This document shows positions 24,475 to 41,741 of a DNA stretch of 64,000 nt, one piece after another. The notes under the pieces are model-generated. The model made no database searches and was not told the DNA's origin. It saw only the letters and a list, made by a program, of their open reading frames with translations. Where the stretch lies: sequence record PZ386972.1. One strand, written 5' to 3'. The number at the start of each line of letters is the position of its first letter. Within the stretch, counting starts at the first letter, position 1. The translations under genes were made by a program, and so were the position numbers. This stretch comes from a phage.

Positions 24475-24652
24475 CCAACTTAAGGAAATAAGATGTATAG
24501 ACATCCACCTCCGCCAACACGTCGTTCTAGAGAAGTTATCCTCATGGAATTGACGAAAAACTTCAAGGCAACTCTTGAAGATAGAGATCTAGGCACGGAT
24601 GAAGACATTGATTTTATTTGTAGACTATTAAAGATGAAACTGGAGAAACAAC

Positions 24653-24859: not shown

Positions 24860-24889
24860 CTCCTCCAAACAGAATTTTTAAAAATGTAC

Positions 24890-24919
24890 TTGCCTTTTGC
24901 TTTAAATTTCTGGTATAAT
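24890..24919 (+). promoter_or_regulatory. T5-type early promoter
   Basis: TTGCCT-18-TATAAT. Confidence 0.55.
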
Positions 24920-24949
24920 AGTTATATAAATTGATGAAGGAGTTAACGA

Positions 24950-25225
24950 ATGCAAAATCGTGTTATAGCAACTGGTATTGAAAGTGCAATCTGTAAATCC
25001 TGGGAAGGCTGGGAAGGTGAGATTGAATGGCTTTATTTCTACGATGTAGAACTTCTGCCGGAAGTTAAAGCTAAATGTGTTGAAGCTGGCATGGCTCCAG
25101 ATGCAAAAGCTGATATTGATATTTCAATGTCTGAACTTAAAGGTCGTGTAATTACTGTTAGTGATGAGGGCGAAGAAGTTTTCGAACTTCCATTCTCCTT
25201 AACTGTCGCTCCTAAGTTCGACTAA
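24950..25225 (+). CDS. hypothetical acidic protein
   Basis: ORF track. Confidence 0.4.
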   Translation: MQNRVIATGIESAICKSWEGWEGEIEWLYFYDVELLPEVKAKCVEAGMAPDAKADIDISMSELKGRVITVSDEGEEVFELPFSLTVAPKFD

Positions 25226-25261
25226 CTAATACAGCACTGAGCAAGTTCTTTAAAATTTGAC

Positions 25262-25290
25262 TTGCTCAGTGCCATAAAACTTGATATAAT
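25262..25290 (+). promoter_or_regulatory. T5-type promoter; its -35 lies in the 3' arm of a long terminator-like inverted repeat
   Basis: CAGCACTGAGCAAG...CTTGCTCAGTGC inverted repeat at about 25232-25273, then TTGCTC-17-TATAAT. Confidence 0.55.
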
Positions 25291-25353
25291 AGTTATCTAA
25301 TTTGGAAACATATCTAAAAGTGTTTAAACTAGTATTTGAATACTTTTAAATAT

Positions 25354-25438
25354 GGGCGTTTATTCCGTAGATGGTAGCGGAGGGGATTGTAAATCCCTGG
25401 TCATTGCGACTCGAGTGGTTCGACTCCATTAACGCCCA
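25354..25438 (+). tRNA. tRNA-Tyr (anticodon GTA), class II
   Basis: Acceptor GGGCGTT/AACGCCC, anticodon loop TTGTAAA, long variable arm, T-arm GTGG-TTCGACT-CCAT, CCA encoded. Confidence 0.8.
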
Positions 25439-25459
25439 CCAAATTTAAAGGTAAAATAT

Positions 25460-25942
25460 ATGTACACTGATAGAATTGTTCAAGAAGCTGCAAACAGAGG
25501 TCTTATTGATCTGGGATCACCAGTTGATATAACTAAAGAGCTAATAACAGAGAGCCTTACGTTTGGCACAGCTAACTTTGGCCGAGATAGTAACCGTCGG
25601 TATAGCTTGAAACTATCAGCATTATCTTTTATTAAGTACAATAAGAGTATTGGAGAAAAATCAAGTTGTGGTTTTATCTACGCGATAACTAATCCAGCTT
25701 GGACTGATTATGTAAAAATTGGCATGTCTTCTGACCCAAAAACAAGATTAGCCAATTACCAGACATATTCTCCACTACGTGACTATAAGTTAATACATTG
25801 GTCATTTTGGTTTAATGCTAGAGAAGCAGAGAAAATGCTTCATAATAGCTTTCCAAAAAGAATTAATGAATGGGTAGTTTTGGACAGAAGTGTAGATGAA
25901 ACACTTGCTGATTTTAATAAACTATCTAATAAACAATTTTAA
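25460..25942 (+). CDS. T5orf172/GIY-YIG-like domain protein (homing-endonuclease-like) embedded in tRNA cluster
   Basis: GFIYAITNPAWTDYVKIGMSSDPKTRLANYQT matches the GIY-YIG-related T5orf172 signature. Confidence 0.5.
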   Translation: MYTDRIVQEAANRGLIDLGSPVDITKELITESLTFGTANFGRDSNRRYSLKLSALSFIKYNKSIGEKSSCGFIYAITNPAWTDYVKIGMSSDPKTRLANYQTYSPLRDYKLIHWSFWFNAREAEKMLHNSFPKRINEWVVLDRSVDETLADFNKLSNKQF

Positions 25943-25943
25943 T

Positions 25944-26015
25944 GCACCTATCATCTATCGGTTAGGACATCAGGTTTTCAACCTGAGAAGCTTGGTTCGA
26001 TTCCGTGTGGGTGTA
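25944..26015 (+). tRNA. tRNA-Glu (anticodon TTC)
   Basis: Acceptor GCACCTA/TGGGTGT, anticodon stem TCAGG/CCTGA, loop TTTTCAA, TTCGATT T-loop, CCA encoded. Confidence 0.7.
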
Positions 26016-26026
26016 CCAAATTCTGC

Positions 26027-26100
26027 ATTCCTAGAGTGTTACTGGACAGCATGTCGGTCTCCAAAACCGTACGGTCTAGGTTCGAGTCCTAGTAGGTTTG
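26027..26100 (+). tRNA. tRNA-Trp (anticodon CCA)
   Basis: Anticodon loop CTCCAAA, T-arm CTAGG-TTCGAGT-CCTAG, CCA encoded; acceptor stem has two U-U mismatches. Confidence 0.55.
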
Positions 26101-26109
26101 CCAAAATTT

Positions 26110-26181
26110 GCACCTTTAGCTGAGATGGATTAGCGCTTGCCTGAAGAGCTTGAGAGGTTCGTTCGATACGAACAGGGTGCA
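26110..26181 (+). tRNA. tRNA-Phe (anticodon GAA), tentative
   Basis: Acceptor GCACCTT/AGGGTGC, loop CTGAAGA, T-arm GTTCG-TTCGATA-CGAAC, CCA encoded; anticodon stem weak. Confidence 0.5.
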
Positions 26182-26201
26182 CCAAATTGAGGGAGCTGCT
26201 G

Positions 26202-26474
26202 ATGCATCCTGAAAACTTCTTTATTTACTGCGCGGATAAGTTGCTGAAACGTAGAATTAACAAAGTCTATCATTATCGTGCTAGTCAACAGCCTTATGTA
26301 TACGCTTTTGACGGTGATCACATCCCATTAGAACAACTATCTTGTGATTACATGATATTGAAGAACTTTGACGAGACAAAGATCTCAAGCGTTCATAATC
26401 GACAGAATCCCTTAACGTGGAAATATAAGAAGAAAAAGAAAGGCATCAAATTCTTAAAAAATGTAGTTGCTTAG
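26202..26474 (+). CDS. hypothetical protein
   Basis: ORF track (TTG 26187); ATG 26202 with GAGGGAG RBS preferred. Confidence 0.4.
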   Translation: MHPENFFIYCADKLLKRRINKVYHYRASQQPYVYAFDGDHIPLEQLSCDYMILKNFDETKISSVHNRQNPLTWKYKKKKKGIKFLKNVVA

Positions 26475-26495
26475 TTTCCAAAAGTTCTGTATAAT
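26467..26495 (+). promoter_or_regulatory. T5-type early promoter
   Basis: TTGCTT-17-TATAAT. Confidence 0.6.
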
Positions 26496-26523
26496 AATTA
26501 CATAAATTGAACTGGAGAAGCAA

Positions 26524-26811
26524 ATGAAACGATTAGTTAGATTTAAGTGTTGTGGTTCTGAACATATTTTCACACATCTTCGTGAATTTAAAATGTGTGA
26601 TTGTGGTAAATCAGGCTATGACTCAGGAGATGGGTTCTACACCCGTACTCTAGGGAACTTCAATGATCTAGAATTTGAAGATCTCGAAAAACAAGAAAAA
26701 GAATTATGTATCTGTTATGAATGTGGTGATCAAGATTACTACTCTAAAACAGGTAAGAAAGTGTGTAGCAATTGTGGTTCCGATCATGTAGCTACACATT
26801 ATGAAAGATAA
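26524..26811 (+). CDS. zinc-ribbon protein with four CxxC pairs
   Basis: CCGSEH, CDCG, CICYECG, CSNCG motifs. Confidence 0.45.
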   Translation: MKRLVRFKCCGSEHIFTHLREFKMCDCGKSGYDSGDGFYTRTLGNFNDLEFEDLEKQEKELCICYECGDQDYYSKTGKKVCSNCGSDHVATHYER

Positions 26812-26816
26812 TAAAC

Positions 26817-26889
26817 CGACCGTTGGCTGAATGGCTTAGGCGAAGGATTGCAAATCCTTTTTATGTGAGTTCAAATCTCATGCGGTCGT
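26817..26889 (+). tRNA. tRNA-Cys (anticodon GCA)
   Basis: Acceptor CGACCGT/GCGGTCG, anticodon stem AAGGA/TCCTT, loop TTGCAAA, T-arm GTGAG-TTCAAAT-CTCAT, CCA encoded. Confidence 0.75.
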
Positions 26890-26892
26890 CCA

Positions 26893-27044
26893 ATTTGCTG
26901 AAAGAATTGTTAAATCAATTCAGGCACGCGTAGGAACACTGTCTCCGTAATTGAAAGATGAGACACGGTTTGGAGAGGTATGCCGCTACACGCTACGGTG
27001 CTAACTCCGTCTAGGTGAAAATCCTAGTCAGCAATATAAATTTA
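26893..27044 (+). ncRNA. about 150 nt structured spacer between tRNA-Cys and tRNA-Asn (candidate small RNA)
   Basis: Hairpins such as GTCTC...GAGAC; no ORF. Confidence 0.25.
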
Positions 27045-27124
27045 GGGTCGTTAGCCAAGCGGTTTGGCGGTGGACTGTTAATCCATGTCGAAAGACAACG
27101 TAGGTTCGAATCCTACACGGCCCG
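27045..27124 (+). tRNA. tRNA with GTT anticodon (Asn) and unusually long 13-nt variable arm
   Basis: Acceptor GGGTCGT/ACGGCCC, D-arm GCCA...TGGC, anticodon stem GTGGA/TCCAT, loop CTGTTAA, variable GTCGAAAGACAAC, TTCGAAT T-loop, CCA encoded. Confidence 0.65.
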
Positions 27125-27229
27125 CCAAATTCTGTGTAGAGTTAAGTAAACCGGTAGCCAACCAGCTATCATTGCTGACATCGAATTCAGCCACAGATAC
27201 CATTTTCATTAATAACTGAGGAAACAAGC

Positions 27230-27415
27230 ATGTCCAAGAATGTAATTGCACAGTTAGAAGTTCATCGTGATAACACAGCTAATAACATTAAGTGCCGACA
27301 AAAAGATATTGAAGCTCAAAAGGCTGATCTTTTAATGAGTATTCGAGAGCTTAATGTACGAAAAGAGTTTCTTAAAGAACTTAATGCAGCTATTGAAAAA
27401 CTCAAAGCTGAGTAA
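27230..27415 (+). CDS. small coiled-coil protein
   Basis: ORF track. Confidence 0.35.
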   Translation: MSKNVIAQLEVHRDNTANNIKCRQKDIEAQKADLLMSIRELNVRKEFLKELNAAIEKLKAE

Positions 27416-27424
27416 ATGAATTAT

Positions 27425-27498
27425 GCGACCGGGGCTGGCTTGGTAATGGTACTCCCCTGTCACGGGAGGGAATGTGGGTTCGAATCCCATCGGTCGCG
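27425..27498 (+). tRNA. tRNA-Asp (anticodon GTC)
   Basis: Acceptor GCGACCG/CGGTCGC, anticodon stem CTCCC/GGGAG, loop CTGTCAC, T-arm GTGGG-TTCGAAT-CCCAT, CCA encoded. Confidence 0.8.
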
Positions 27499-27678
27499 CC
27501 AAATAAGGTAGGTTAGCTATGGAACGTAGGGAGTTTACTCCGGAAGAGATAGAGCAGATAAAAGAATCTGCTATGAAAAATGCTAGAATATCTCTGTCAC
27601 TGGAAGGTATCATTATAAGTGATGTAAACTTTGAAAAAATCAAAGCCATAGCTGATGAACTGGAAAAAGTAATTTAAT

Positions 27679-27751
27679 ACATCCATAGCTCAATGGTTAG
27701 AGCTACCGCCTCTTAAGCGGAGGGTTCTAGGTTCAAGTCCTAGTGGGTGTA
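27679..27751 (+). tRNA. tRNA-Lys (anticodon CTT)
   Basis: Acceptor ACATCCA/TGGGTGT, D-arm GCTC...GAGC, loop CTCTTAA, T-arm CTAGG-TTCAAGT-CCTAG, CCA encoded. Confidence 0.65.
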
Positions 27752-27780
27752 CCAAACTAAACTAGCACGAGAAATATGCT

Positions 27781-28128
27781 ATGATTAATGCTAAAGAAGA
27801 GTTGTTACTTGCCCTAAAGAATACTAAGTCTGAAGTTAAGTGTATTAAGATAGAATTCGGTTATTATGGGAACAAAGAAGTTTGGATATTACCCGTAGGT
27901 TATACAGAAAAAGATATTGAAGATTTTCTAAATAATCTAGACTTCAAATATGATTCTGGTTTCGGTGGACAATTGCTTTACGGTAACGTATGGTTTACTG
28001 ATGGAACTTGGTTAGAGCGTGGTGAATATGATGGTTCTGAATGGTGGGAGTATAAGACTACACCAGCAATCCCAGAAGAATGCCGAACAATTAATGGTGA
28101 AGTAGATCGTACTTTACTATTAAATTAA
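27781..28128 (+). CDS. hypothetical protein
   Basis: ORF track. Confidence 0.45.
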   Translation: MINAKEELLLALKNTKSEVKCIKIEFGYYGNKEVWILPVGYTEKDIEDFLNNLDFKYDSGFGGQLLYGNVWFTDGTWLERGEYDGSEWWEYKTTPAIPEECRTINGEVDRTLLLN

Positions 28129-28250
28129 CAAAATTTCAGTGCAGAACACGGAGCTAGCAATTCGGAAGTGCTGACTCATGATAGGCTGCCTATGTACTTG
28201 CGAAGCGGTCGTGTCCAAGACTCGGACTCTTGCACTGAAAACAATCAAAC

Positions 28251-28368
28251 ATTCTAGCGTGGTTGATGGGGAAACCAGCTTGGCTAGGGCAGAAGCTCGT
28301 TCGATTCGAGTGAAAGAATGGTTCTCGTAAGTCCGCACAAGTGATAACAGGTTCGAGTCCTGTCTAGA
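28251..28368 (+). ncRNA. 118-nt tRNA-like RNA: perfect 7-bp acceptor-like stem and canonical T-arm, no encoded CCA
   Basis: 5' ATTCTAG pairs with 3' CTAGAAT; T-arm ACAGG-TTCGAGT-CCTGT; internal second TTCGATT hairpin. Confidence 0.35.
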
Positions 28369-28383
28369 ATGACACTATAAAGT

Positions 28384-28494
28384 TTACTTATTATGTAGGT
28401 TCCGATAGATCGGCGGGTCTATTCTGGCATTTAAGAGAGGTCTCGCAAACTTCTTTGTCAGCCGTGGGGTTGATAGCCTCCAGGTGGCCTACAC
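28384..28494 (+). ncRNA. about 110-nt structured RNA closed by terminal helix
   Basis: 5' TGTAGGT pairs with 3' GCCTACA; internal hairpins; no ORF. Confidence 0.3.
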
Positions 28495-28520
28495 AATAAG
28501 TAAATTTATTAAAAATTCAT

Positions 28521-28549
28521 TTGCTATTCTGCTTAATTATCTGTATAAT
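28521..28549 (+). promoter_or_regulatory. T5-type early promoter
   Basis: TTGCTA-17-TATAAT. Confidence 0.6.
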
Positions 28550-28579
28550 ATATTTTATAAAGTGAGTTAACAAAATTAA

Positions 28580-28652
28580 CAGTGCGTAGCGCAGTTGGTA
28601 GCGTGGGAGCCTTGGATGCTTCGGGTCGCAGGTTCGAGTCCTGCCGCACTGA
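28580..28652 (+). tRNA. tRNA-Pro (anticodon TGG)
   Basis: Acceptor CAGTGCG/CGCACTG, D-arm GCGC...GCGT, loop CTTGGAT, T-arm GCAGG-TTCGAGT-CCTGC, CCA encoded. Confidence 0.75.
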
Positions 28653-28661
28653 CCAAACAAT

Positions 28662-28736
28662 TGCGGGTTAGATCTCTGGTAGAGATCGCTAGTCTCATAA
28701 GCTAGAAAGAGGTAGGTTCGATTCCTGCACCCGCTT
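28662..28736 (+). tRNA. tRNA with CAT anticodon (Met or Ile2)
   Basis: D-arm GATC...GATC, anticodon stem CTAGT/GCTAG, loop CTCATAA, TTCGATT T-loop, CCA encoded; 1-72 U-U mismatch. Confidence 0.6.
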
Positions 28737-28759
28737 CCATTTTAATAGAGGATTTCGAA

Positions 28760-28927
28760 ATGAAAGTATTTCGATTAGTAGTAAGTGACAAACGTTTAGG
28801 TAAGAATACCTCAAAATCCTTACTTGCTCATTATGGAAAAGATGAGAAAGAAGTAATGGCGGAGTTTGGGATTAATCACCCTTACTTGAAAGTTCACTCT
28901 ATTAAAGAAGTATATAATGGTTACTAA
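28760..28927 (+). CDS. small hypothetical protein (55 aa)
   Basis: ATG with GAGGA RBS between two tRNAs; below track cutoff. Confidence 0.3.
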   Translation: MKVFRLVVSDKRLGKNTSKSLLAHYGKDEKEVMAEFGINHPYLKVHSIKEVYNGY

Positions 28928-28928
28928 T

Positions 28929-29004
28929 AGATCGCTAGCTCAATAGGTTTAGTAGCATCCGACTTTTAATCGGAAGGTTCTGGGTTCGAGTCCCAGGCGA
29001 TCTA
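28929..29004 (+). tRNA. tRNA-Lys (anticodon TTT)
   Basis: Acceptor AGATCGC/GCGATCT, anticodon stem TCCGA/TCGGA, loop CTTTTAA, T-arm CTGGG-TTCGAGT-CCCAG, CCA encoded. Confidence 0.8.
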
Positions 29005-29026
29005 CCAATTTCAAGAAAAACGCAGT

Positions 29027-29054
29027 TGCTTGATGCTTAATTTCTTGTTATAAT
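29027..29054 (+). promoter_or_regulatory. T5-type early promoter
   Basis: TTGCTT-16-TATAAT. Confidence 0.55.
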
Positions 29055-29104
29055 ATTTATATAAATTGATGAGGATTTCTCCTCATCATAGTTCACTAAG
29101 GTAT

Positions 29105-29268
29105 TAGCTCGACCTAGGACTGGCTGCCAAAAAGCACGATCCCTACGATTCGGGAGAAGTTCTAGATTAGTCCACTAGATTCAGCGGCAACTGAATAGTG
29201 TATCGGGTTTGCGAGATGACGCGGTTCCTTCCGCTCGAAGCGAAGGTGCTGTAGTTACGCCGAGCTAA
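29105..29268 (+). ncRNA. about 165-nt structured RNA closed by TAGCTCG/CGAGCTA helix
   Basis: Long-range complementary 7-mers plus internal hairpins; no ORF. Confidence 0.3.
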
Positions 29269-29292
29269 TAGCCTTAGTAAACTAAAGAATTT

Positions 29293-29368
29293 GGGGAATG
29301 GGTCTGCATGGAGTGGACACCTCGCTTGCACCGAGGACATCAGAACGGTTCGATTCCGTTATTCTCCA
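29293..29368 (+). tRNA. tRNA-Ala (anticodon TGC)
   Basis: Acceptor GGGGAAT/ATTCTCC with G3-U70 wobble, anticodon stem CCTCG/CGAGG, loop CTTGCAC, T-arm AACGG-TTCGATT-CCGTT, CCA encoded. Confidence 0.75.
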
Positions 29369-29376
29369 CCAAATAC

Positions 29377-29450
29377 GCGTGATTGATGGAATTGGCATAC
29401 ATACCGTCCTTAGAAGTCGGGTTTTGAGGGTTCGAATCCCTTGTCACGCA
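29377..29450 (+). tRNA. tRNA with TAG anticodon (Leu by anticodon) but class I architecture
   Basis: Acceptor GCGTGAT/GTCACGC, loop CTTAGAA, 5-nt variable loop, T-arm GAGGG-TTCGAAT-CCCTT, discriminator A, CCA encoded; weak D stem. Confidence 0.5.
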
Positions 29451-29453
29451 CCA

Positions 29454-29565
29454 AATTTGATGGTCAGAGTAAATTAAACCTACTATCTCGGTTGAGCTGT
29501 TTTAATGGGTTCGAATCCCAGCGAGGCGTAACTGCCTGGCGTGATAGAGGCATCATCTTATTATT
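29454..29565 (+). ncRNA. about 110-nt segment containing an orphan T-arm-like hairpin (tRNA-like fragment or small RNA)
   Basis: TGGG-TTCGAAT-CCCA hairpin with no matching acceptor stem or CCA; AGGCGTAACTGCCT hairpin. Confidence 0.25.
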
Positions 29566-29653
29566 GGAAGAGCAAATCGAATTGGCGACGAAAACCGCTT
29601 GGAAAGTGGCTGACTGGTAAAACGGCTTGAGAGTTCAAATCTCTCCTCTTCCG
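29566..29653 (+). tRNA. tRNA-Ser (anticodon GGA), class II
   Basis: Acceptor GGAAGAG/CTCTTCC, loop TTGGAAA, long variable arm, T-arm GAGAG-TTCAAAT-CTCTC, CCA encoded. Confidence 0.7.
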
Positions 29654-29668
29654 CCAAACAATTTATAT

Positions 29669-29760
29669 GGTAGGTCAATCCAATGGCTGGCGCTGGACTC
29701 CGACTTGAAATCGGTTGATCGTAGTGATACGGTGTAAGGGTTCGATCCCCTTACCTACCT
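29669..29760 (+). tRNA. tRNA-Ser (anticodon TGA), class II
   Basis: Acceptor GGTAGGT/ACCTACC, loop CTTGAAA, long variable arm, T-arm AAGGG-TTCGATC-CCCTT, CCA encoded. Confidence 0.7.
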
Positions 29761-29764
29761 CCAA

Positions 29765-29910
29765 GTCTTGAAGTATGCCGGAATCGGTAGACGGGGCTGC
29801 CTAAAAGGTTTATAGGGAACATCCACTCCCTACAACATACCTCATAAAGCGGCTGAGATAAATGGTCTATCTCGTGAAGGTTCAAGTCCTTCTGCTTCTT
29901 GATACATCTA
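29765..29910 (+). ncRNA. about 145-nt structured segment with D-arm-like and T-arm-like hairpins but no complete cloverleaf
   Basis: GAGATA-AATGGTC-TATCTC and GAAGG-TTCAAGT-CCTTC hairpins; no CCA. Confidence 0.25.
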
Positions 29911-30014
29911 TGGCTCAAAGTGTAACGGTGCTATTTGATGCTCTTAGTAAGACTTTCCCGACATGCGTTCGGGAGTAAGCTGCTAAGGCTAGAATAGAAG
30001 AGTTTCTGAGAGCC

Positions 30015-30134
30015 GCCACAATTGAAAATTCGTACTCGTCTTGAGCTGCGTGCAATAGGAGATAACTTGATTAGTATTCTAGAACATGCTAATTGAGGAT
30101 GGTTTCGCTAACCCTGCGAGTTTTCAATTGTGGC
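30015..30134 (+). ncRNA. structured element closed by a perfect 14-bp helix whose 3' strand overlaps the 5' end of tRNA-His
   Basis: GCCACAATTGAAAA at about 30015-30028 is the exact reverse complement of TTTTCAATTGTGGC at about 30121-30134. Confidence 0.4.
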
Positions 30135-30203
30135 TATATCATAATTGGTTAATGATCCTGATTGTGAATCAGGCCTATGTGGATTCGAATTCCACTAGCC
30201 ACC
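30130..30203 (+). tRNA. tRNA-His (anticodon GTG)
   Basis: Acceptor GTGGCTA/TAGCCAC, anticodon stem CCTGA/TCAGG, loop TTGTGAA, T-arm GTGGA-TTCGAAT-TCCAC, discriminator C, CCA encoded. Confidence 0.8.
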
Positions 30204-30231
30204 CCAAATTAACTTAAATAGGAAATAAAAT

Positions 30232-30429
30232 ATGGCTGATTTCTGCAAACAATGCTCCATTGATATGTGGGGCAGAGATACTGGTGATCTTTCTGGTTTG
30301 ATTACAGAAGCTGAGGTCAAAGAAGGTTATGGTGCAGTTGTGATTTGCGAAGGATGCGGAGTTATTCGAGTAGATCATGAAGGCAAACGTTTAGAAGAAC
30401 AGGAAAACTTAGGAGAAACAAATGAGTAA
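30232..30429 (+). CDS. small Cys-containing protein
   Basis: ORF track. Confidence 0.4.
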   Translation: MADFCKQCSIDMWGRDTGDLSGLITEAEVKEGYGAVVICEGCGVIRVDHEGKRLEEQENLGETNE

Positions 30430-30658
30430 TGCTTTAATTAGTGAAATTATGTTAACACGTCTTGCAGAACTGCAAACTCTTCGAGATGAATCTCAGAATA
30501 ACTTAGCCTACCATAAACAGATGGTAGATACTCTTACTACTCGTATTGATACTTACGAGCGTGATATTGCAGCATTACAAGCTCTTTTCTCTGTATCAGC
30601 ACCAGATACGTTAGAACAGCCTGCTGTATCTCAGCCAGTAGAAACAGCATCTAGCTAA
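30422..30658 (+). CDS. hypothetical coiled-coil protein
   Basis: ORF track; overlaps upstream stop. Confidence 0.4.
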   Translation: MSNALISEIMLTRLAELQTLRDESQNNLAYHKQMVDTLTTRIDTYERDIAALQALFSVSAPDTLEQPAVSQPVETASS

Positions 30659-30667
30659 TAGCATTCT

Positions 30668-30740
30668 TGGGATGTAGATCAATTGGCAGATCGTCGGCCT
30701 CTGACTCCGAAGGTTCCACGTTCGATCCGTGGCATCCCAG
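30668..30740 (+). tRNA. tRNA-Gln (anticodon CTG)
   Basis: Acceptor TGGGATG/CATCCCA, D-arm GATC...GATC, loop CTCTGAC, T-arm CCACG-TTCGATC-CGTGG, discriminator G, CCA encoded. Confidence 0.7.
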
Positions 30741-30749
30741 CCAAACAAT

Positions 30750-30822
30750 TGGAGAGTAGTGTAACGGTTAGCACAACGGCCTTTGACTCCGTTAATGGTA
30801 GGTTCGATTCCTCCTTCTCCAG
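30750..30822 (+). tRNA. tRNA-Gln (anticodon TTG)
   Basis: Acceptor TGGAGAG/TTCTCCA, loop CTTTGAC, TTCGATT T-loop, discriminator G, CCA encoded. Confidence 0.65.
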
Positions 30823-30833
30823 CCAAGTAATAA

Positions 30834-30906
30834 GCGGTTAAGCACACGGGTTGTGTCGCAGGCCTTCCAAGCCTCGCTGAGTAGGGTTCGATTCCCTCTA
30901 GCCGCT
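30834..30906 (+). tRNA. tRNA-Gly (anticodon TCC)
   Basis: Acceptor GCGGTTA/TAGCCGC, loop CTTCCAA, TTCGATT T-loop, CCA encoded. Confidence 0.6.
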
Positions 30907-30925
30907 CCAACTTTAAGGAAACATT

Positions 30926-31177
30926 ATGCACGTTTTTGAGTTTCGTAATAAAAGTACCGATAAACGAGTTATTGTTATTGGAGAAACATACCGAGCATAC
31001 GAACAAACTGACGGCTCTGTTATCCTAAACGATGAGAAAGGAGGTTTTAGCTTTTATCCAGAAGAACCTTATGAAGAGTTTCGAAAACAATTTAACCTAG
31101 ACTGGAGAAAGCATTTAAACACTGTTGCTTCATCTGTAGTATTGCCAACTACCAGTACTGTACTCTCTAATGGCTGA
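30926..31177 (+). CDS. hypothetical protein
   Basis: ORF track. Confidence 0.4.
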   Translation: MHVFEFRNKSTDKRVIVIGETYRAYEQTDGSVILNDEKGGFSFYPEEPYEEFRKQFNLDWRKHLNTVASSVVLPTTSTVLSNG

Positions 31178-31342
31178 TAACCTAAAAGTCAAGATCGATA
31201 AACAAAAGAAACGTGTAGAAGTAGAGATTGGTGAAGAACGTGTAGCCTTCACCTTTGAATTTCTACAACAAATGGCAATGGCGGTTATGACTGATAAGTC
31301 TCCTGTTATTGAAAAAGAAATCCCGTTGAAATAACGGGTTCT

Positions 31343-31426
31343 GCTGGGTTGGCAGAATGGTTGAATGCACCTGATTTGTAATCAGGAGGAGTAATCCCGT
31401 TGCAGGTTCGAATCCTGTGCCCAGCA
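31343..31426 (+). tRNA. tRNA with TGT anticodon (Thr) and long 15-nt variable arm
   Basis: Acceptor GCTGGGT/GCCCAGC, anticodon stem CCTGA/TCAGG, loop TTTGTAA, T-arm GCAGG-TTCGAAT-CCTGT, CCA encoded. Confidence 0.55.
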
Positions 31427-31611
31427 CCAACTTAAGGACTATTATGTTTAAATTATTAGTAGTTATCTGGTATAGTCAATCAAATAGAGCGAATACCTCC
31501 CACGTTATAGACTTTAATACTAAAAATGAAGCTGAAAAAGCATATTCTAATTTAATAGAACGTAATAAAGAATCTCGTAGTATAGTTTATGAAGTGACTA
31601 AACTTTATTAA
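31417..31611 (+). CDS. small hypothetical protein (track start overlaps tRNA 3' end; true start probably the internal ATG)
   Basis: ORF track. Confidence 0.3.
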   Translation: MPSTNLRTIMFKLLVVIWYSQSNRANTSHVIDFNTKNEAEKAYSNLIERNKESRSIVYEVTKLY

Positions 31612-31619
31612 AAATTCAT

Positions 31620-31648
31620 TTGCTTTCTCTCTTATTTATTGTTATAAT
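31620..31648 (+). promoter_or_regulatory. T5-type early promoter
   Basis: TTGCTT-17-TATAAT. Confidence 0.6.
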
Positions 31649-31678
31649 ATTTATATAAATTAATGAGAGGGAAGCCAA

Positions 31679-31972
31679 ATGAAACGTTATCTTTCTGTTG
31701 TGTTCCAAACTGGTGGTCAACGCTATACCTATGAATTTCCTGGCTCTTGGAAGATCAAAGAGGGTGATCAAGTAGTAGTGTTAACACCGCGTGAGGGTTT
31801 CAAGGTAGTAACGGTTAAGCAAGTATTTCCAAAAGAGCATGAACCAGCTAAAGGCATTCGCTATAAGATGATTCATGGTGTAGTTCGTCAAGTACCACGA
31901 GCGGAAGTCGAAATCAAAGTAGATAAAGATGGTAGACTTAAATATACCTCTTGCTTAGATGAGCTGCTATAA
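31679..31972 (+). CDS. hypothetical protein
   Basis: ORF track, GAGGGAAG RBS. Confidence 0.45.
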   Translation: MKRYLSVVFQTGGQRYTYEFPGSWKIKEGDQVVVLTPREGFKVVTVKQVFPKEHEPAKGIRYKMIHGVVRQVPRAEVEIKVDKDGRLKYTSCLDELL

Positions 31973-32178
31973 TGAGGATTACTTTCACAGAAAAGATCAT
32001 GAGTAATGGTGTTATGATCATTACTGCATGGGATGGCAATCAGTGGTGTAGTGTTTCAGGTATTAAGCCTGAAGAACAAACACTAGAAAATATCTCAAAG
32101 ATTAAGCGAAGAATGGCAGAACGTGCACGACTTCCAGGTGCACCTAGAAATGGCAAACGTTCTGCTGCAAAATGTTAA
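31972..32178 (+). CDS. hypothetical protein
   Basis: ORF track, ATGA start-stop overlap with upstream gene. Confidence 0.4.
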   Translation: MRITFTEKIMSNGVMIITAWDGNQWCSVSGIKPEEQTLENISKIKRRMAERARLPGAPRNGKRSAAKC

Positions 32179-32179
32179 T

Positions 32180-32253
32180 GCTTCGGTAGCTTAGCGATCT
32201 AAAGCACTCGGCTGATAACCGAGAGATCGGGGGTTTAAATCCCTCCCGGAGTA
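32180..32253 (+). tRNA. tRNA-Ile (anticodon GAT) with atypical TTTAAAT T-loop
   Basis: Acceptor GCTTCGG/CCGGAGT, anticodon stem CTCGG/CCGAG, loop CTGATAA, T-arm GGGGG-TTTAAAT-CCCTC, CCA encoded. Confidence 0.7.
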
Positions 32254-32352
32254 CCAAATTTAGGAATTAAGACTATGCGTCCAGGAAAGTTTAAAAAAGC
32301 TAATTGGTCTAAAGAGTATAAAGAATACTTACTTAGTCTAGTAAAACATAAC

Positions 32353-32425
32353 AGTTAGTTGGCAGAGTGGTTATGCACCTCCTTCATACGGAGCGACTAC
32401 AGTGGTTCAAATCCACTACTAACTA
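32353..32425 (+). tRNA. tRNA with CAT anticodon (Met or Ile2)
   Basis: Acceptor AGTTAGT/ACTAACT, loop TTCATAC, T-arm AGTGG-TTCAAAT-CCACT, CCA encoded. Confidence 0.65.
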
Positions 32426-32465
32426 CCATTAAAAGAGCTAGAGATAGCTAAATTTAGGAGCAGCT

Positions 32466-36138: not shown

Positions 36139-36837
36139 ATGAGGATTATTTCTAAATTCGCAGATGTATATGATTTGCAGAACAGTTTGTTTGATCCCGA
36201 TCGTGTTTGGGAGCGTAAAACTGAAGAGTTACTGGTTAAAGTAACTGATGATGCAGAAAAGAACATCGTGCATAGTCGCCAGGTATTTCGTGAAGATTCA
36301 CTATCTTTCCGTGGAGACTTCGAATACTTTGTAAATCCATTGTTCGTTGCAGGTGAAGTTTACTGGTTACACGAGCTGTACTGCTGGCATCCAGAGTTTA
36401 GCTTCAAAACGTTCGACCTCGACACTATGTTCGATAAAATGGAAGAGATGGGATTGCATGCTCGCTCTTACTTAATGGATAAGAGTCGTGGAGATGTTCG
36501 TGAAACAATGCGTGATTTGCTCGTTGAAGCAAAACCTAAAGCAGAACGTATCTTGTCCGAACTGCGTGTACCGATTGCATATGTGAAAGGTATCAAGAAG
36601 AACGATAACGATGATGTTCGTAACTTCGTGATTCAGACTAACATTCGTTTCCATCAGTCAGGTATTCCGTGGCAGGAAATTGAAAGTAACTTATACCGTT
36701 TACACCAAGTTCTCGAACAGTATATCTTCGGTGTACTAGGAACTGGTGAGCCTGATATGATTAAAGTATCAGATAAAGATAGGTTAGCAGCGCATGGATT
36801 TGATACAAAAACTTCTTTCAGGAATATGGCATGGTAA
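36139..36837 (+). CDS. hypothetical protein
   Basis: ORF track. Confidence 0.5.
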   Translation: MRIISKFADVYDLQNSLFDPDRVWERKTEELLVKVTDDAEKNIVHSRQVFREDSLSFRGDFEYFVNPLFVAGEVYWLHELYCWHPEFSFKTFDLDTMFDKMEEMGLHARSYLMDKSRGDVRETMRDLLVEAKPKAERILSELRVPIAYVKGIKKNDNDDVRNFVIQTNIRFHQSGIPWQEIESNLYRLHQVLEQYIFGVLGTGEPDMIKVSDKDRLAAHGFDTKTSFRNMAW

Positions 36838-37243
36838 GTGGTATATCCTGGGAGCAGGTCTAGCGATAGGCATCGGATTCGGTGCTTATCACTTAGTAGA
36901 TAAAGTGGAGACTTTAGCGGGAGATCTTGCAGTAGCTACTAAAAAGATCTCTTCTCTAGAGACTTCCCTTAATAAGGTGAAAGCTGAAAGCGAACTTCGT
37001 GAGACTAGAATGAATCAGTATTTCACGATGAATAATATTTCTCAAGCAGATCTAGACAAAAAGATTAAGCAGCTAGATAAAGCTCTTAGTCGTCAAGATG
37101 TTATCGCTGCAAAACCTGGATTGGTAACATTAATTGCTAAAAAGCAGAATAAAGAGTTCGAGGAAAGATTAGCGTGTTTAACTGGAAACTTGGAGTACTG
37201 CTCGCAGCCACAATCACAATCACAGGCTGTGCAGAAGAAATAA
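36794..37243 (+). CDS. i-spanin-like protein (N-terminal TM helix plus periplasmic coiled coil)
   Basis: TM segment WYILGAGLAIGIGFGAY followed by heptad-rich region; 3' end overlapped by lipoprotein gene in another frame. Confidence 0.4.
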   Translation: MDLIQKLLSGIWHGKWYILGAGLAIGIGFGAYHLVDKVETLAGDLAVATKKISSLETSLNKVKAESELRETRMNQYFTMNNISQADLDKKIKQLDKALSRQDVIAAKPGLVTLIAKKQNKEFEERLACLTGNLEYCSQPQSQSQAVQKK

Positions 37244-37527
37244 AACCAGAGCCATCTCATGAGTTAAAGCAAGCTCATGTAGATTGGCCTAAAGGACTTC
37301 AACCTTGTAGCTTTGACTTTAAATTTGAAAAGAAATTAGCTACAAATGGGGAAGATGGCGTAGTAGTTGTTATACCATACAAAGATTGGAATGCAAAAGC
37401 AAAATGTGAGGAAGCAGTTTACTCTTACATTTCACGACTGACTGGTATGGTCTGCTTTTATCGTCAAGATTTACAAGAAAAACGTTGCTTAGTTTACTAT
37501 CCACCAATTAACAATAGGAAAGATTAA
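37174..37527 (+). CDS. outer-membrane lipoprotein (o-spanin-like), start embedded in the previous gene
   Basis: Signal peptide with lipobox LLAATITITGC; embedded/overlapping arrangement typical of Rz/Rz1 pairs. Confidence 0.4.
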   Translation: MFNWKLGVLLAATITITGCAEEIKPEPSHELKQAHVDWPKGLQPCSFDFKFEKKLATNGEDGVVVVIPYKDWNAKAKCEEAVYSYISRLTGMVCFYRQDLQEKRCLVYYPPINNRKD

Positions 37528-38279
37528 TGTCAGTATTAGTCGGTTTACATGGTGAAGCTGGTTCGGGAAAAGATACCGTTGCAAAATTAATTATCGATTG
37601 GTGTAATGACACGTATCCAACGTGTTTATCTCGTCGTTATAGTTTTGCTAAGCCCGTTTATGAACTTGCATCCGTAATCCTCGGTGTAACTCCAGAGTTT
37701 CTAGGAGAGCGCAGGGGGAAAGAGATTGACCAATGGTTTACGGTCACACAATCTCAGTTGGAACGAGCCAGGGATGTGTGGTTTAAGTACGGTATCGATA
37801 AGTTTGAAGACTTCTCGTACGTTTGGCCTATTTTTGAGGAAAAATATCTTAATCCTCAACAACTTATCTCAGAGAATAAAGAAGACGGACTTTATAGTTT
37901 ATTTATTTCTCCGAGAAAAATGTTACAGCTCGTAGGGACAGAGCTAGGAAGGCAGCTGGTGCATGAACGCATTTGGCTCATAATTCTGGAGCAATCCATC
38001 GCTAAAGACGACCCAGACGTCGCCGTAATAACAGATGTTAGATTCCCCAATGAAGGAGAGCTACTCAGAGAAACAAACCATTTAGATATGGATTCTTTGA
38101 TAGTAAATGTAGTACCCGCTGAGCAGAAGTTTACTATTAAATCAGATCATCCATCTGAAAGTGGTATTCCTGCAAAATATATTACCCACGAATTAGTTAA
38201 TAAATTCGATGGTATCAATAACCTTAAACTAGAAGTTTATAACTTCTGTGACTTAGAGCTAGAACCACTAGTTGAATAA
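37527..38279 (+). CDS. deoxynucleoside monophosphate kinase
   Basis: 250 aa; P-loop GLHGEAGSGKDT at N-terminus; T5-type dNMP kinase size and position. Confidence 0.6.
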   Translation: MSVLVGLHGEAGSGKDTVAKLIIDWCNDTYPTCLSRRYSFAKPVYELASVILGVTPEFLGERRGKEIDQWFTVTQSQLERARDVWFKYGIDKFEDFSYVWPIFEEKYLNPQQLISENKEDGLYSLFISPRKMLQLVGTELGRQLVHERIWLIILEQSIAKDDPDVAVITDVRFPNEGELLRETNHLDMDSLIVNVVPAEQKFTIKSDHPSESGIPAKYITHELVNKFDGINNLKLEVYNFCDLELEPLVE

Positions 38280-38291
38280 TCAAGGATCGCT

Positions 38292-38891
38292 ATGACTAAT
38301 AAAAAAGAAGAAAAGACTAACCTGTTTCACTCCATTCGCCAATCTAATGAGTATACCTTTTTCTTTGATGAAGAATTAGGCCCGCCGGATGAATACCGTG
38401 ATTTATCAATGGTACTTATGCAGGCAAATGAGGACGACGAAATTAATCTGATGATTAATGGCCCGGGTGGTTATGTTGATACTGCTGCACAGTTATCTAA
38501 CTTAATTGCTAATTGCCGTGGAACAGTTATAGGACATCTGGTTGGTCCTAGTGCTTCTGCTTACTGCACAATTTTCCTATCCTGTCATGGATGGGTGGTA
38601 CATCCACATGCTACGCTAATGGGACACACGTTCTCTGGCGGATTCTGTGAGAAAGGTCAAGAAATCAAGAAAGCCTATGAATCTTACAACAAGTTCGTAG
38701 AAGATATGATGCTAGATGTCTACTATCCGTTCTTCTCAATAGATGAAATCGACGAGATGGTAAAAGACAACAAAAATATCTATCTAGATAGCAAGGAAAT
38801 CCATAAGCGTATTGAAATCTTGGCAAAATATCGATCTGAGCAATATAATAAAGCCCATTTACCTAAATCCGAGAAGCACAACGAAGAGTAA
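38292..38891 (+). CDS. ClpP-like serine peptidase
   Basis: MINGPGGYVDTAAQL resembles the ClpP INSPGG motif; GPSASAY and MGHTFSGG around candidate Ser/His. Confidence 0.5.
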   Translation: MTNKKEEKTNLFHSIRQSNEYTFFFDEELGPPDEYRDLSMVLMQANEDDEINLMINGPGGYVDTAAQLSNLIANCRGTVIGHLVGPSASAYCTIFLSCHGWVVHPHATLMGHTFSGGFCEKGQEIKKAYESYNKFVEDMMLDVYYPFFSIDEIDEMVKDNKNIYLDSKEIHKRIEILAKYRSEQYNKAHLPKSEKHNEE

Positions 38892-38900
38892 GTAATTTTA

Positions 38901-38934
38901 AGCCAGGGTTTAACGACCCTGGCTTTTCTTTTAT
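38901..38934 (+). terminator. rho-independent terminator
   Basis: AGCCAGGG...CCCTGGCT hairpin then TTTCTTTT. Confidence 0.65.
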
Positions 38935-38994
38935 CTAAAATTCTTCTTGACAACGACAAAATTTTATGCTCCAGAAGTGATCTTTAAAAACACA

Positions 38995-39047: not shown

Positions 39048-39704
39048 TTGGAAAAGTTCTTACAATTATTAACAGTACTGCTCCAAGAAGCGAAAGATCC
39101 AGCATCGCTTCTTAAACGTCTGCTAACTATCTTAGTTGCTGTCATTATTTTCTTATTTGTTAGTAATACTAGCGAGGTGATGTCATTCTTAAAGACTTTC
39201 TCCACGTCTGCGGTTCTACAGGATGTTCAAACTCAAAGGATAGATAACTTTCCCAATGTAGCTAGAGAAAAGAGCATGGTACTCTTTTCTCAAACGGGTG
39301 CGGATGCTGTTTTTGTCGTCAAGTATAAACCCGATGCCATTAATGATTATTCTAACATTATTGCATGGGAAAGCAATGCGCAATTAGATAGGGCTGACTT
39401 GGCCGATAAAGCGGTAAATAAAACGTCTGAGCTATATAGACGTCACTTGGAAGGCTTTAACTACGCATCGGATTTAAGTGTAAAAGTAAATAAATACATG
39501 GGGTTAAATATACCTGCGTTTAAGAACGTTACTTTTAATTACATATACACTTGTCCGTATTTCAATCTAAACAATATCTATGCTGGATATATTGGTATTG
39601 CTTGGAAAGATAATCCTGTAGATGCGGCCGATTCTGAGAAATTTAACGAGTATTTAACAAAGCTCTGTTCTCCACAACAGAGATCTTTAGGTAGATCAAT
39701 ATGA
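39048..39704 (+). CDS. putative holin
   Basis: TTG start with GAGGAGG RBS; TM segment LLTILVAVIIFLFV; immediately upstream of and overlapping the endolysin start. Confidence 0.5.
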   Translation: MEKFLQLLTVLLQEAKDPASLLKRLLTILVAVIIFLFVSNTSEVMSFLKTFSTSAVLQDVQTQRIDNFPNVAREKSMVLFSQTGADAVFVVKYKPDAINDYSNIIAWESNAQLDRADLADKAVNKTSELYRRHLEGFNYASDLSVKVNKYMGLNIPAFKNVTFNYIYTCPYFNLNNIYAGYIGIAWKDNPVDAADSEKFNEYLTKLCSPQQRSLGRSI

Positions 39705-40114
39705 GTTTTAAATTTGGTAAAAATAGCGAAAAACAATTAGCTACCGTTAAGCCAGAGCTACAAAAAGTAGCTCGTAGAGCTTTAGAATTATCTCCATATG
39801 ATTTCACGATCGTACAGGGTATTCGTACAGTAGCACAAAGTGCCCAGAATATTGCTAATGGTACTTCATTTTTAAAAGATCCTAGTAAAAGCAAGCATAT
39901 TACTGGGGATGCCCTTGATTTTGCTCCATACATTAATGGCAAAATTGATTGGAATGATTTAGAAGCATTTTGGGCAGTTAAAAAGGCTTTTGAACAAGCT
40001 GGTAAAGAACTGGGCATTAAACTTCGTTTTGGTGCTGATTGGAATGCTTCGGGAGATTATCACGACGAAATAAAACGTGGTACCTATGATGGTGGTCATG
40101 TCGAACTAGTTTAA
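39701..40114 (+). CDS. lys: endolysin, M15-family L-alanyl-D-glutamate peptidase
   Basis: 137 aa; VanY/M15-like H...D...H zinc-binding pattern (SKHITGDALDF, DGGHVE); matches T5-type endolysin size. Confidence 0.75.
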   Translation: MSFKFGKNSEKQLATVKPELQKVARRALELSPYDFTIVQGIRTVAQSAQNIANGTSFLKDPSKSKHITGDALDFAPYINGKIDWNDLEAFWAVKKAFEQAGKELGIKLRFGADWNASGDYHDEIKRGTYDGGHVELV

Positions 40115-41495: not shown

Positions 41496-41741
41496 ATGTT
41501 AGCGGAACAGGCAAAACGTTTAGCCAGAATAAATAGAGCTGCACTTCTTAAAAGCAGAAAGAAACAATATAAGTATGTTAAAAAGAGAATAGTTTCTTCT
41601 GTGGGGATTGGAGGTTCTTTTGTACAGTTTAATCGTGATGAAATTAGTTATGAAGCTATAAAAGCCCTCTATAAAGAGGGTTATACCCTCCAACTATCTA
41701 ATGATTATGGTACAACTATTTTAACTGTTATTTGGGAATAA
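41496..41741 (+). CDS. hypothetical protein
   Basis: ORF track. Confidence 0.4.
   Translation: MLAEQAKRLARINRAALLKSRKKQYKYVKKRIVSSVGIGGSFVQFNRDEISYEAIKALYKEGYTLQLSNDYGTTILTVIWE

What the first reader, a model, noticed from the sequence alone, without database searches (positions are those of the whole stretch)
38292..38891. ClpP-like peptidase encoded between dNMP kinase and the lysis cassette
An INGPGG motif and Ser/His candidates suggest a ClpP-family protease of about 200 aa in the early region, far from any head-morphogenesis genes, so it is unlikely to be the prohead protease. It could remodel host proteins or form mixed complexes with host ClpP.
Basis: partly seen in the sequence, partly recalled or inferred. 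Interest (0 to 1): 0.4.

Follow-up and report, generated by a model that had tools for sequence, protein, structure and literature searches.

The report
T5.042-type phage ClpP-like protease
The ORF is real and is the already-annotated T5 gene T5.042, a ClpP-fold serine protease of unknown function from a large phage-only family; it is not a true ClpP, and T5-type phages have replaced the third catalytic residue (Asp to Asn).

Summary
Window 38292..38891 (+) encodes a 199-aa protein about 98% identical to proteins annotated "ATP-dependent (Clp) protease" in hundreds of T5-like phages; in reference T5 the gene is T5.042.

It is not a ClpP orthologue:
- TIGR00493 scores 15.9 bits against a 308.6 cut-off.
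- The N-terminal axial-loop/helix-A region has no detectable counterpart.
- The positions aligned with the ClpX/ClpA docking pocket are mostly polar.

It belongs to a phage-specific family (phrog_1827; 500 cluster representatives at E<1e-30). The homologues sampled in five other phage groups sit among early replication or nucleotide-metabolism genes, never beside capsid genes.

What seems new is that the T5 clade alone carries Asn162 in place of the catalytic Asp, always together with Glu120 in place of a near-invariant Gly. The gene is under strong purifying selection (dN/dS 0.04-0.10). Ser-His-Asn is the triad of Listeria ClpP1.

A published T5 knock-down screen scores T5.042 "Not Fit". Function remains unknown; mixed rings with host ClpP are possible but untested. 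The gene and its label are already known, so interest is low to moderate.

The parts
38292..38891 (+). CDS of the ClpP-like protease (199 aa, 22.9 kDa, pI 5.2); orthologue of T5.042 and BF23 ORF45
   Evidence: annotation; profiles; fold; mass
38282..38286 (+). Shine-Dalgarno-like AAGGA, 5 nt before the ATG
   Evidence: read directly from the sequence
38454..38471 (+). Codons for I55-N-G-P-G-G60, equivalent to ClpP INSPGG; G59 and G60 are invariant in 160 family representatives; G60 aligns with E. coli G68 (oxyanion hole)
38556..38558 (+). Ser89 codon (TCT), the nucleophile; aligns with ClpP Ser97; invariant 160/160
38625..38627 (+). His112 codon (CAC), the general base; aligns with ClpP His122; invariant 160/160
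38649..38651 (+). Glu120 codon (GAG); Gly in 148/160 family representatives; Glu only in the T5 clade; aligns with E. coli ClpP G130 at the start of the handle
38775..38777 (+). Asn162 codon (AAT) at the position of the catalytic Asp (E. coli D171); D/E in 152/160 representatives; Asn only in the T5 clade
38900..38935 (+). Intrinsic terminator (11-bp stem, 6 G-C pairs, then a T-rich tail) ending the T5.047-spanins-dnk-protease transcription unit
   Evidence: terminator annotated at the same place in T5
37527..38279 (+). dNMP kinase (dnk), the upstream gene with no annotated promoter or terminator in between, so presumably co-transcribed
36794..37527 (+). Two overlapping Rz-like spanin genes (T5.045/T5.044 homologues) in the same transcription unit

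Best explanation
This is the T5.042 orthologue of a T5-like phage (Tequintavirus). It is a soluble, non-structural ClpP-fold serine peptidase belonging to a large phage-specific family (phrog_1827).

Shown here:
- ClpP/crotonase fold with a handle helix (residues 124-144).
- Oxyanion loop INGPGG, nucleophile Ser89 and base His112, all invariant across the family.
- Strong purifying selection.
- Transcription-unit context: a promoter upstream of T5.047, then the spanins, dnk and the protease gene, then a terminator.
- No similarity to ClpP's N-terminal axial loop and helix A.
- Mostly polar residues at the positions of the hydrophobic pocket where the ClpX/ClpA IGF/IGL loops dock.

Inferred: the protein assembles into ClpP-like rings through the retained handle and works as a self-compartmentalised peptidase. 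It does not itself bind a Clp ATPase, so the database label 'ATP-dependent' is unsupported. It cleaves particular host or phage proteins, or peptides, in the infected cell as an accessory function that is useful in nature but dispensable on laboratory E. coli.

In the T5 clade the triad acid has become Asn162, in strict association with Gly120 to Glu. By homology with ClpP, both positions map to the equatorial ring-ring coupling region. This probably re-tunes or gates activity, as in Listeria ClpP1, rather than abolishing it.
For: Identity: 98% DNA identity to T5-like phages that annotate it as a Clp protease; T5.042 in NC_005859.

Fold and motifs.

Family size and invariance: 500 representatives at E<1e-30; G59, G60, S89 and H112 are 160/160; acid at position 162 in 152/160.

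Selection: dN/dS 0.04-0.10, with synonymous variation at the Ser89, His112 and Asn162 codons.

Not a ClpP orthologue: TIGR00493 15.9 bits against a 308.6 cut-off; the best NCBIfam model is the ClpP-related head-maturation protease at 40.9 bits, also below its cut-off of 120.

N-terminus and pocket: hhalign aligns only residues 21-130 to E. coli ClpP 27-140; residues 1-10 have low pLDDT, no helix precedes strand 1, and residues 1-19 are variable in the family. Positions equivalent to E. coli L48, A52, Y60, F82 and M92 are mostly Q/E, T/N, N/H, N/E and E/D in the family.

Non-structural context in PaoP5, Barba33A, RYC, PBES02 and D484.

Dispensability: T5.042 is 'Not Fit' in the CRISPRi-ART screen, 6 guides (PMC11879866 supplement). 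Core gene of 185 Tequintavirus genomes (PMC12639943).
Against: - No biochemical data exist for any family member in the searched literature.
- The Asp to Asn change could make the T5-clade protein inactive on its own: Listeria ClpP1 with Ser98-His123-Asn172 is an inactive heptamer alone (PMC9257651).
- Oligomeric state was not modelled.
- Model coordinates are not exposed by the tools, so active-site geometry and the position of Glu120 relative to His112 were not measured.
- The docking-pocket residue list comes from my memory of ClpP-ADEP/ClpX structures.
- BF23 virion mass spectrometry detected the protein (3 peptides; PMC10644984), which hints at a virion-linked role.
- The CRISPRi-ART authors report a false-negative rate, so 'Not Fit' does not prove dispensability.
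Confidence: 0.55

Rival explanations
1. Listeria ClpP1-like partner ring. A T5.042 heptamer, weak or inactive alone because of Asn162, stacks on a heptamer of host ClpP. The host ring supplies ClpX/ClpA docking and aligns the phage ring's triad, which changes the rate or specificity of host ClpXP/ClpAP during infection.
Against: Only 16-23% identity to cellular ClpPs. The family scores closer to phage head-maturation proteases than to cellular ClpP. Most of the family has a normal Asp and so needs no partner. The family occurs in phages of many host genera. LmClpP1 keeps Gly at the Glu120 position, so the T5 change is not the same solution. No interaction data exist.
Confidence: 0.15
2. Catalytically dead or near-dead pseudo-protease. 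It acts by binding: for example it caps or poisons host ClpP rings, or sequesters a substrate or adaptor, so that phage proteins are protected from host proteolysis.
For: Loss of the triad acid in the whole T5 clade. By my memory of Zeiler et al. 2013 (not held), the equivalent change inactivates canonical ClpP. Dispensable in the laboratory.
Against: Ser89, His112 and the oxyanion glycines stay strictly conserved under dN/dS below 0.1, even in the 57%-identical E/N-clade member, where dS is saturated. A pure binder would be expected to lose them. Ser-His-Asn is active in the LmClpP1/2 complex.
Confidence: 0.12
3. Accessory morphogenetic or virion-associated protease: packaged in low copy, or acting on a structural protein alongside the main prohead protease.
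For: Detected in purified BF23 virions (3 peptides, intensity 2.8e7, similar to the tail terminator and tail completion proteins; PMC10644984). The best NCBIfam and several PHROG matches are head-maturation proteases. Some homologues carry acidic, helical, scaffold-like C-terminal tails.
Against: It sits in an early operon with dnk, far from the head genes; the window holds no head genes. T5-like phages have their own prohead protease. An early enzyme, DHFR, was also found in the same virion preparation, which suggests carry-over. Knock-down has no fitness effect. Homologues elsewhere sit in replication regions.
Confidence: 0.08
4. Lysis-linked protease that processes the holin, the spanins or a host envelope protein to time lysis.
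For: The order spanins-dnk-protease-holin-endolysin is conserved in T5, Klebsiella SEL21, Providencia PR1 and a 57%-identical metagenomic phage; in Vibrio phage 70E37-3 the protease gene overlaps the endolysin gene. There are weak NfeD/SppA-type profile matches.
Against: No signal peptide or transmembrane segment (maximum Kyte-Doolittle 19-residue window 1.26). The Vibrio C-terminal extension is acidic, not hydrophobic. The synteny is confined to one generally syntenic phage family and is absent in five other groups. A terminator and a separate promoter separate it from the holin and endolysin genes.
Confidence: 0.05

Closest known systems
Phage T5 gene T5.042 / BF23 ORF45 / phrog_1827 ('ATP-dependent protease', 'Clp protease')
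   Same: Same gene: about 98% identical at DNA and protein level, with the same neighbours and terminator; full-length PHROG match at E 1e-89; the predicted mass of 22.92 kDa equals that of BF23 ORF45, 22.927 kDa.
   Different: Nothing material. The database name 'ATP-dependent' is an inherited label with no supporting feature.
Bacterial ClpP (MEROPS S14; E. coli ClpP, PDB 1TYF)
   Same: Alpha/beta ClpP fold with a handle helix; INxPGG oxyanion loop; Ser and His at equivalent positions; the GG..G(Q/K)..(D/E) handle motif.
   Different: 16-23% identity. TIGR00493 scores 15.9 bits against a 308.6 cut-off. No counterpart of the N-terminal axial loops or helix A. Docking-pocket positions are polar. 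Asp171 is replaced by Asn162. A long C-terminal helix (167-189) replaces the ClpP C-terminus. Family members match each other at TM 0.73-0.90 but cellular ClpP at only 0.58-0.67.
Listeria monocytogenes ClpP1 (PDB 4JCQ, 4RYF)
   Different: LmClpP1 is a cellular ClpP paralogue that works with ClpP2 encoded in the same genome, and it keeps Gly at the position of Glu120. T5.042 derives from a phage family whose other members have Asp. No partner ring is known.
ClpP-related phage head-maturation proteases (NCBIfam NF045542; phrog_1684, phrog_94)
   Same: These are the best-scoring curated models for T5.042 and for all 120 family members tested, which suggests a shared phage ancestry.
   Different: The score is below the model's cut-off (40.9 against 120). 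The gene is not next to portal, scaffold or capsid genes, and T5-like and Barba phages carry a separate prohead protease.
SppA / NfeD (1510-N) membrane ClpP-class proteases (MEROPS S49)
   Different: Those are membrane-associated Ser-Lys dyad enzymes (from my knowledge of the family). T5.042 is soluble, has an invariant His and is closer to ClpP.

Membership tests
Pfam CLP_protease (PF00574) / ClpP-crotonase fold serine peptidases | Profile match above the gathering score | tested here: met
   33.7 bits against 20.2, E 4.3e-8, but covering only profile positions 39-139 of 182; 117 of 120 family members match
Pfam CLP_protease (PF00574) / ClpP-crotonase fold serine peptidases | ClpP-type alpha/beta fold with a handle helix | tested here: met
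Bacterial ClpP proper (TIGR00493 equivalog, MEROPS S14) | Equivalog model score above its cut-off | tested here: not met
   15.9 bits against a cut-off of 308.6; other ClpP subfamily models score 22.7 bits or less against cut-offs above 200
Bacterial ClpP proper (TIGR00493 equivalog, MEROPS S14) | Ser-His-Asp catalytic triad | tested here: not met
   Ser89 and His112 are present; the Asp171 position is Asn162
Bacterial ClpP proper (TIGR00493 equivalog, MEROPS S14) | Conserved N-terminal axial loop and helix A that gate the pore and contact the ATPase | tested here: not met
   The profile-profile alignment starts at T5 residue 21 = E. coli residue 27; no helix precedes strand 1 and residues 1-10 have low pLDDT; residues 1-19 are variable and gapped in the family
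Bacterial ClpP proper (TIGR00493 equivalog, MEROPS S14) | Hydrophobic surface pocket for the ClpX/ClpA IGF/IGL loops (E. coli L48, F49, A52, Y60, Y62, F82, I90, M92, F112, L114; list recalled from memory) | tested here: not met
   Y60 to N52, F82 to N74, I90 to H82, A52 to Q44; family-wide these positions are mostly polar or charged. Sequence-level test only.
Bacterial ClpP proper (TIGR00493 equivalog, MEROPS S14) | Heptameric rings stacked into a tetradecamer | not testable with these tools
   No multimer modelling and no model coordinates were available. The handle helix and the GK..E motif are retained.
phrog_1827 / T5.042 family of non-structural phage ClpP-like proteases | Full-length profile match | tested here: met
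   E 1e-89, residues 1-198 against profile positions 5-201 of 202; family structures match at TM 0.73-0.90
phrog_1827 / T5.042 family of non-structural phage ClpP-like proteases | Location among early, replication or nucleotide-metabolism genes rather than head genes | tested here: met
ClpP-related head-maturation protease (NF045542) | Model score above its cut-off | tested here: not met
   40.9 bits against 120
ClpP-related head-maturation protease (NF045542) | Gene adjacent to portal, scaffold or major capsid genes | tested here: not met
   Early region; separate prohead proteases in BF23 and in Barba phages
Listeria ClpP1-type conditionally active ClpP | Ser-His-Asn triad | tested here: met
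Listeria ClpP1-type conditionally active ClpP | Forms a hetero-tetradecamer with a canonical ClpP that activates it | not testable with these tools
   Needs biochemistry or multimer modelling

The most novel reading that the evidence does not exclude
T5-type phages have converted an ordinary phage ClpP-like peptidase (Gly120/Asp162) into a gated Ser-His-Asn enzyme (Glu120/Asn162). Its activity would depend on ring-ring contacts, either with itself, with Glu120 supplying a carboxylate or salt bridge across the equatorial interface, or with a heptamer of host ClpP. In the second case the phage would plug its own proteolytic ring into host ClpXP/ClpAP and retarget it during infection.
Probability: 0.15. 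Interest if true: 0.7.

Novelty: already known. Interest (0 to 1): 0.3.

Why it matters
The gene is core to T5-like phages, and its family is widespread in large virulent phages of Vibrio, Pseudomonas, enterobacteria and others. It is under strong purifying selection, yet knock-down has no effect in the laboratory and no function is published. That profile fits host-takeover or counter-defence factors.

If the protease degrades a host defence or regulatory protein, or hijacks the host Clp machinery, it would be a new class of phage effector. The Glu120/Asn162 switch gives a concrete mutational handle for testing this.

As a scan finding, though, it only re-discovers an existing annotation. [quoted passage not shown]

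Tried and rejected
- Literature on function. Searches for T5 with Clp protease, 'phage-encoded ClpP', ClpP with Tequintavirus, T5.042, ClpP-like early gene, and AMG with ClpP found only annotation-level mentions. Zeiler et al. 2013 (PMC3710848) is not held, so the statement that D172N inactivates canonical ClpP rests on memory. The LmClpP1 facts come from PMC9257651 and PMC5361862.
- Captured host clpP: rejected. TIGR00493 scores 15.9 bits, identity is 16-23%, and the protein is closer to phage head-protease models.
- Prohead protease: rejected on location, on the separate prohead protease, and on the 'Not Fit' result.
- Membrane or NfeD/SppA-like or lysis-coupled protease: no hydrophobic segment; the long Vibrio homologue has an acidic tail, not a transmembrane domain; synteny with lysis genes is limited to Demerecviridae.
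- Overlapping minus-strand ORFs (38665..38826 and 38780..38959): short, and the plus frame is under strong purifying selection.
- Measuring Glu120-His112-Asn162 distances: not possible, because the tools do not expose model coordinates (one search shows no structure file).
- Intermediates (E120/D162 or G120/N162): none among the 160 representatives.

Full report
**What is there**

Window 38292..38891 (+) is an ATG-initiated ORF of 199 codons plus a stop. AAGGA lies 5 nt upstream of the ATG. A strong intrinsic terminator follows at 38900..38925, with an 11-bp stem and a T-rich tail.

The surrounding 3.5 kb is 98% identical to T5-like phages (Tequintavirus and relatives; 453 records). [quoted passage not shown] In reference T5 (NC_005859) the gene is T5.042, 'ATP-dependent protease'.

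The T5 record annotates a promoter upstream of T5.047 and a terminator after T5.042. That gives one transcription unit: T5.047, (hegF), two Rz-like spanins, dnk and T5.042. The holin and endolysin follow from their own promoter. Pfam confirms the neighbours in the window: DNMK, Phage_holin_T at 8e-114, and a sub-threshold Peptidase_M15 match for the endolysin.

The one correction is that dnk and the protease gene lie inside a split lysis cluster.

**Is it a ClpP-family protease?**

At the level of fold and superfamily, yes.
- Pfam CLP_protease scores 33.7 bits against a gathering score of 20.2, but only over profile positions 39-139.
- phrog_1827 matches the full length at 1e-89.
- A family profile hits ClpP crystal structures at 5e-18.
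- An AF2 model built on 120 homologues has pLDDT 93.2.

I confirmed that my recalled E. coli ClpP sequence is identical to 1TYF chain A and that it places S97, H122 and D171 correctly. On that scale:
- INGPGG55-60 corresponds to INSPGG, with G60 equivalent to the oxyanion G68.
- Ser89 corresponds to S97.
- His112 corresponds to H122.
- Glu120 corresponds to G130.
- Asn162 corresponds to D171.

**It is not a ClpP orthologue**

- The NCBIfam ClpP equivalog TIGR00493 gives 15.9 bits against a cut-off of 308.6. The best curated model is 'head maturation protease, ClpP-related' at 40.9 bits, also below its cut-off of 120. All 120 family members tested behave the same way.
- Profile-profile alignment to E. 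coli ClpP begins only at residue 21, which equals E. coli residue 27. There is therefore no detectable counterpart of the N-terminal axial loops and helix A.
- The model has no helix before strand 1, and residues 1-10 have low confidence. Residues 1-19 are variable across the family.
- The positions aligned with the hydrophobic ClpX/ClpA docking pocket (residue list from memory) are largely polar, both in T5.042 (N52, N74, H82, Q44) and family-wide.
- The C-terminus is a long helix (167-189) that is absent from ClpP.
- In BFVD, family members match at TM 0.73-0.90. Other viral ClpP-like proteins match at TM 0.54-0.67 (most 0.60-0.66), and cellular ClpPs in the PDB search match at 0.58-0.67.

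The adjective 'ATP-dependent' in the annotations therefore has no sequence support.

**The family**

An exhaustive profile search found 500 cluster representatives at E<1e-30 and 2,464 at E<1e-10. tblastn finds homologues in 1,332 phage records, from phages of Vibrio, Salmonella, Pseudomonas, Escherichia, Rheinheimera, Klebsiella and other hosts.

I sampled five groups outside Demerecviridae: Pakpunavirus PaoP5, Barbavirus, Vibrio phage RYC, Certrevirus PBES02 and the 252-kb Vibrio phage D484. In each, the gene lies among replication or nucleotide-metabolism genes. PhoH lies within about 2 kb upstream in three of the five (next gene in Barbavirus). The gene is never beside portal or capsid genes.

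Barba phages and BF23 have separate prohead proteases.

**A clade-specific active-site change**

In 160 representatives, G59, G60, Ser89 and His112 are invariant. Position 162 is Asp in 135, Glu in 17, Asn in 6 and Thr in 2. Position 120 is Gly in 148 and Glu in 6.

The six Asn sequences are exactly the six Glu120 sequences. They are the window protein and its T5-type relatives, down to 57% identity. No intermediates were found.

Among the 27 most conserved columns, these are the only non-conservative departures of the clade. More distant Demerecviridae (Klebsiella SEL21, Providencia PR1, Vibrio 70E37-3) keep Gly and Asp.

The clade is under strong purifying selection, with pairwise dN/dS of 0.04-0.10. 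There is synonymous variation at the Ser89 (TCT/TCC), His112 (CAC/CAT) and Asn162 (AAT/AAC) codons. The Glu/Asn state is therefore maintained, not decay.

A Ser-His-Asn triad is known from Listeria ClpP1. That protein is an inactive heptamer alone, is activated when stacked on ClpP2, and cannot dock ClpX (PMC9257651). Its N172D mutant is tetradecameric (PMC5361862). LmClpP1 keeps Gly at the Glu120 position.

By homology, Glu120 sits at the junction of the handle strand and helix, and Asn162 sits next to the Arg/Lys 'oligomerisation sensor' position (Lys161). Both therefore lie in the equatorial ring-ring region. This placement is inferred from my knowledge of ClpP structures. I could not measure it, because model coordinates are not exposed.

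**Functional data from the literature**

- BF23 virion proteomics detected the orthologue (ORF45, 22.927 kDa; the window protein computes to 22.92 kDa). The signal was 3 peptides at low intensity, and the authors state that its function is unknown. DHFR, another early enzyme, was also detected, so carry-over is possible (PMC10644984).
- The gene is one of the few core genes at over 80% identity across 185 Tequintavirus genomes (PMC12639943).
- In the transcriptome-wide CRISPRi-ART screen of T5, T5.042 ('putative ATP-dependent Clp protease') is 'Not Fit' (6 guides, p about 0.9). T5.047, the first gene of the same operon, is 'Fit' (PMC11879866 supplement).
- The combination of core, constrained and dispensable on laboratory E. 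coli points to an accessory, condition-dependent role.

**Best explanation and rivals**

The best-supported reading (confidence about 0.55 for the mechanism, above 0.95 for the fold and family assignment) is a soluble, early-transcribed, ring-forming ClpP-fold serine peptidase. It acts without directly docking a Clp ATPase and has an accessory role in the infected cell. In the T5 clade its activity is re-tuned or gated by the Glu120/Asn162 pair.

Rivals:
- ClpP1-like hetero-rings with host ClpP (0.15).
- A pseudo-protease or ClpP poison (0.12).
- A virion or assembly protease (0.08).
- A lysis-linked protease (0.05).

None can be excluded without biochemistry. The decisive experiments are listed separately.

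**Verdict**

The gene and its ClpP-like nature are already known from annotation, so as a discovery it ranks low.

The residual interest has two parts. First, the label overstates what the sequence shows: this is not a ClpP, it has no ATPase-docking features, and its triad is incomplete. Second, a widespread, conserved, non-structural phage protease family, with a clean clade-specific catalytic-site switch, still lacks a known function.

Noticed in passing
window 36794..37527 versus 39048..40114: The lysis genes are split. Two overlapping Rz-like spanin genes lie upstream of dnk and the protease gene, while the holin and endolysin follow after a terminator and their own promoter. This order is conserved in T5, Klebsiella SEL21, Providencia PR1 and a metagenomic relative.
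   Followed up: partly
window 36139..36837: This is the homologue of T5.047 (232 aa, no Pfam match) and the first gene of the same operon. It is of unknown function but scored 'Fit' (p about 2e-4) in the T5 CRISPRi-ART screen, so it is arguably a more interesting target than the protease.
   Followed up: no
window 36794..36837: The HNH homing endonuclease hegF (T5.046), which lies between T5.047 and the spanins in reference T5, is absent here. The T5.047 homologue overlaps the first spanin gene directly.
   Followed up: no
window 41496..41741: The 81-aa ORF corresponding by position and size to T5.036 is labelled 'major head protein' in the RefSeq T5 record. That label is almost certainly wrong for an 81-aa early-region protein.
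   Followed up: no
L006 3899..4861 (Vibrio phage 70E37-3): This Demerecviridae-like homologue is 320 aa, with a ~130-aa (about residues 190-320) highly acidic, probably helical C-terminal extension, and it overlaps the endolysin gene by 11 nt. Many family members are 250-320 aa with variable C-terminal tails.
   Followed up: partly
L003, L012, L013 (Barba33A, Vibrio RYC, Cronobacter PBES02): A PhoH-family gene lies immediately or closely upstream of the ClpP-like gene in three unrelated phage groups. This may be a recurrent gene pairing.
   Followed up: no
window 22030..32428: A cluster of 22 tRNA genes on the + strand, typical of T5-like phages.
   Followed up: no
family alignment positions 121, 152, 173 (window nt 38652..38654, 38745..38747, 38808..38810): Lys121 (140/160), Glu152 (160/160) and Arg173 (158/160) are as conserved as the catalytic residues but have no assigned role. 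Lys121 aligns with the ClpP Gln131 position in the handle.
   Followed up: no
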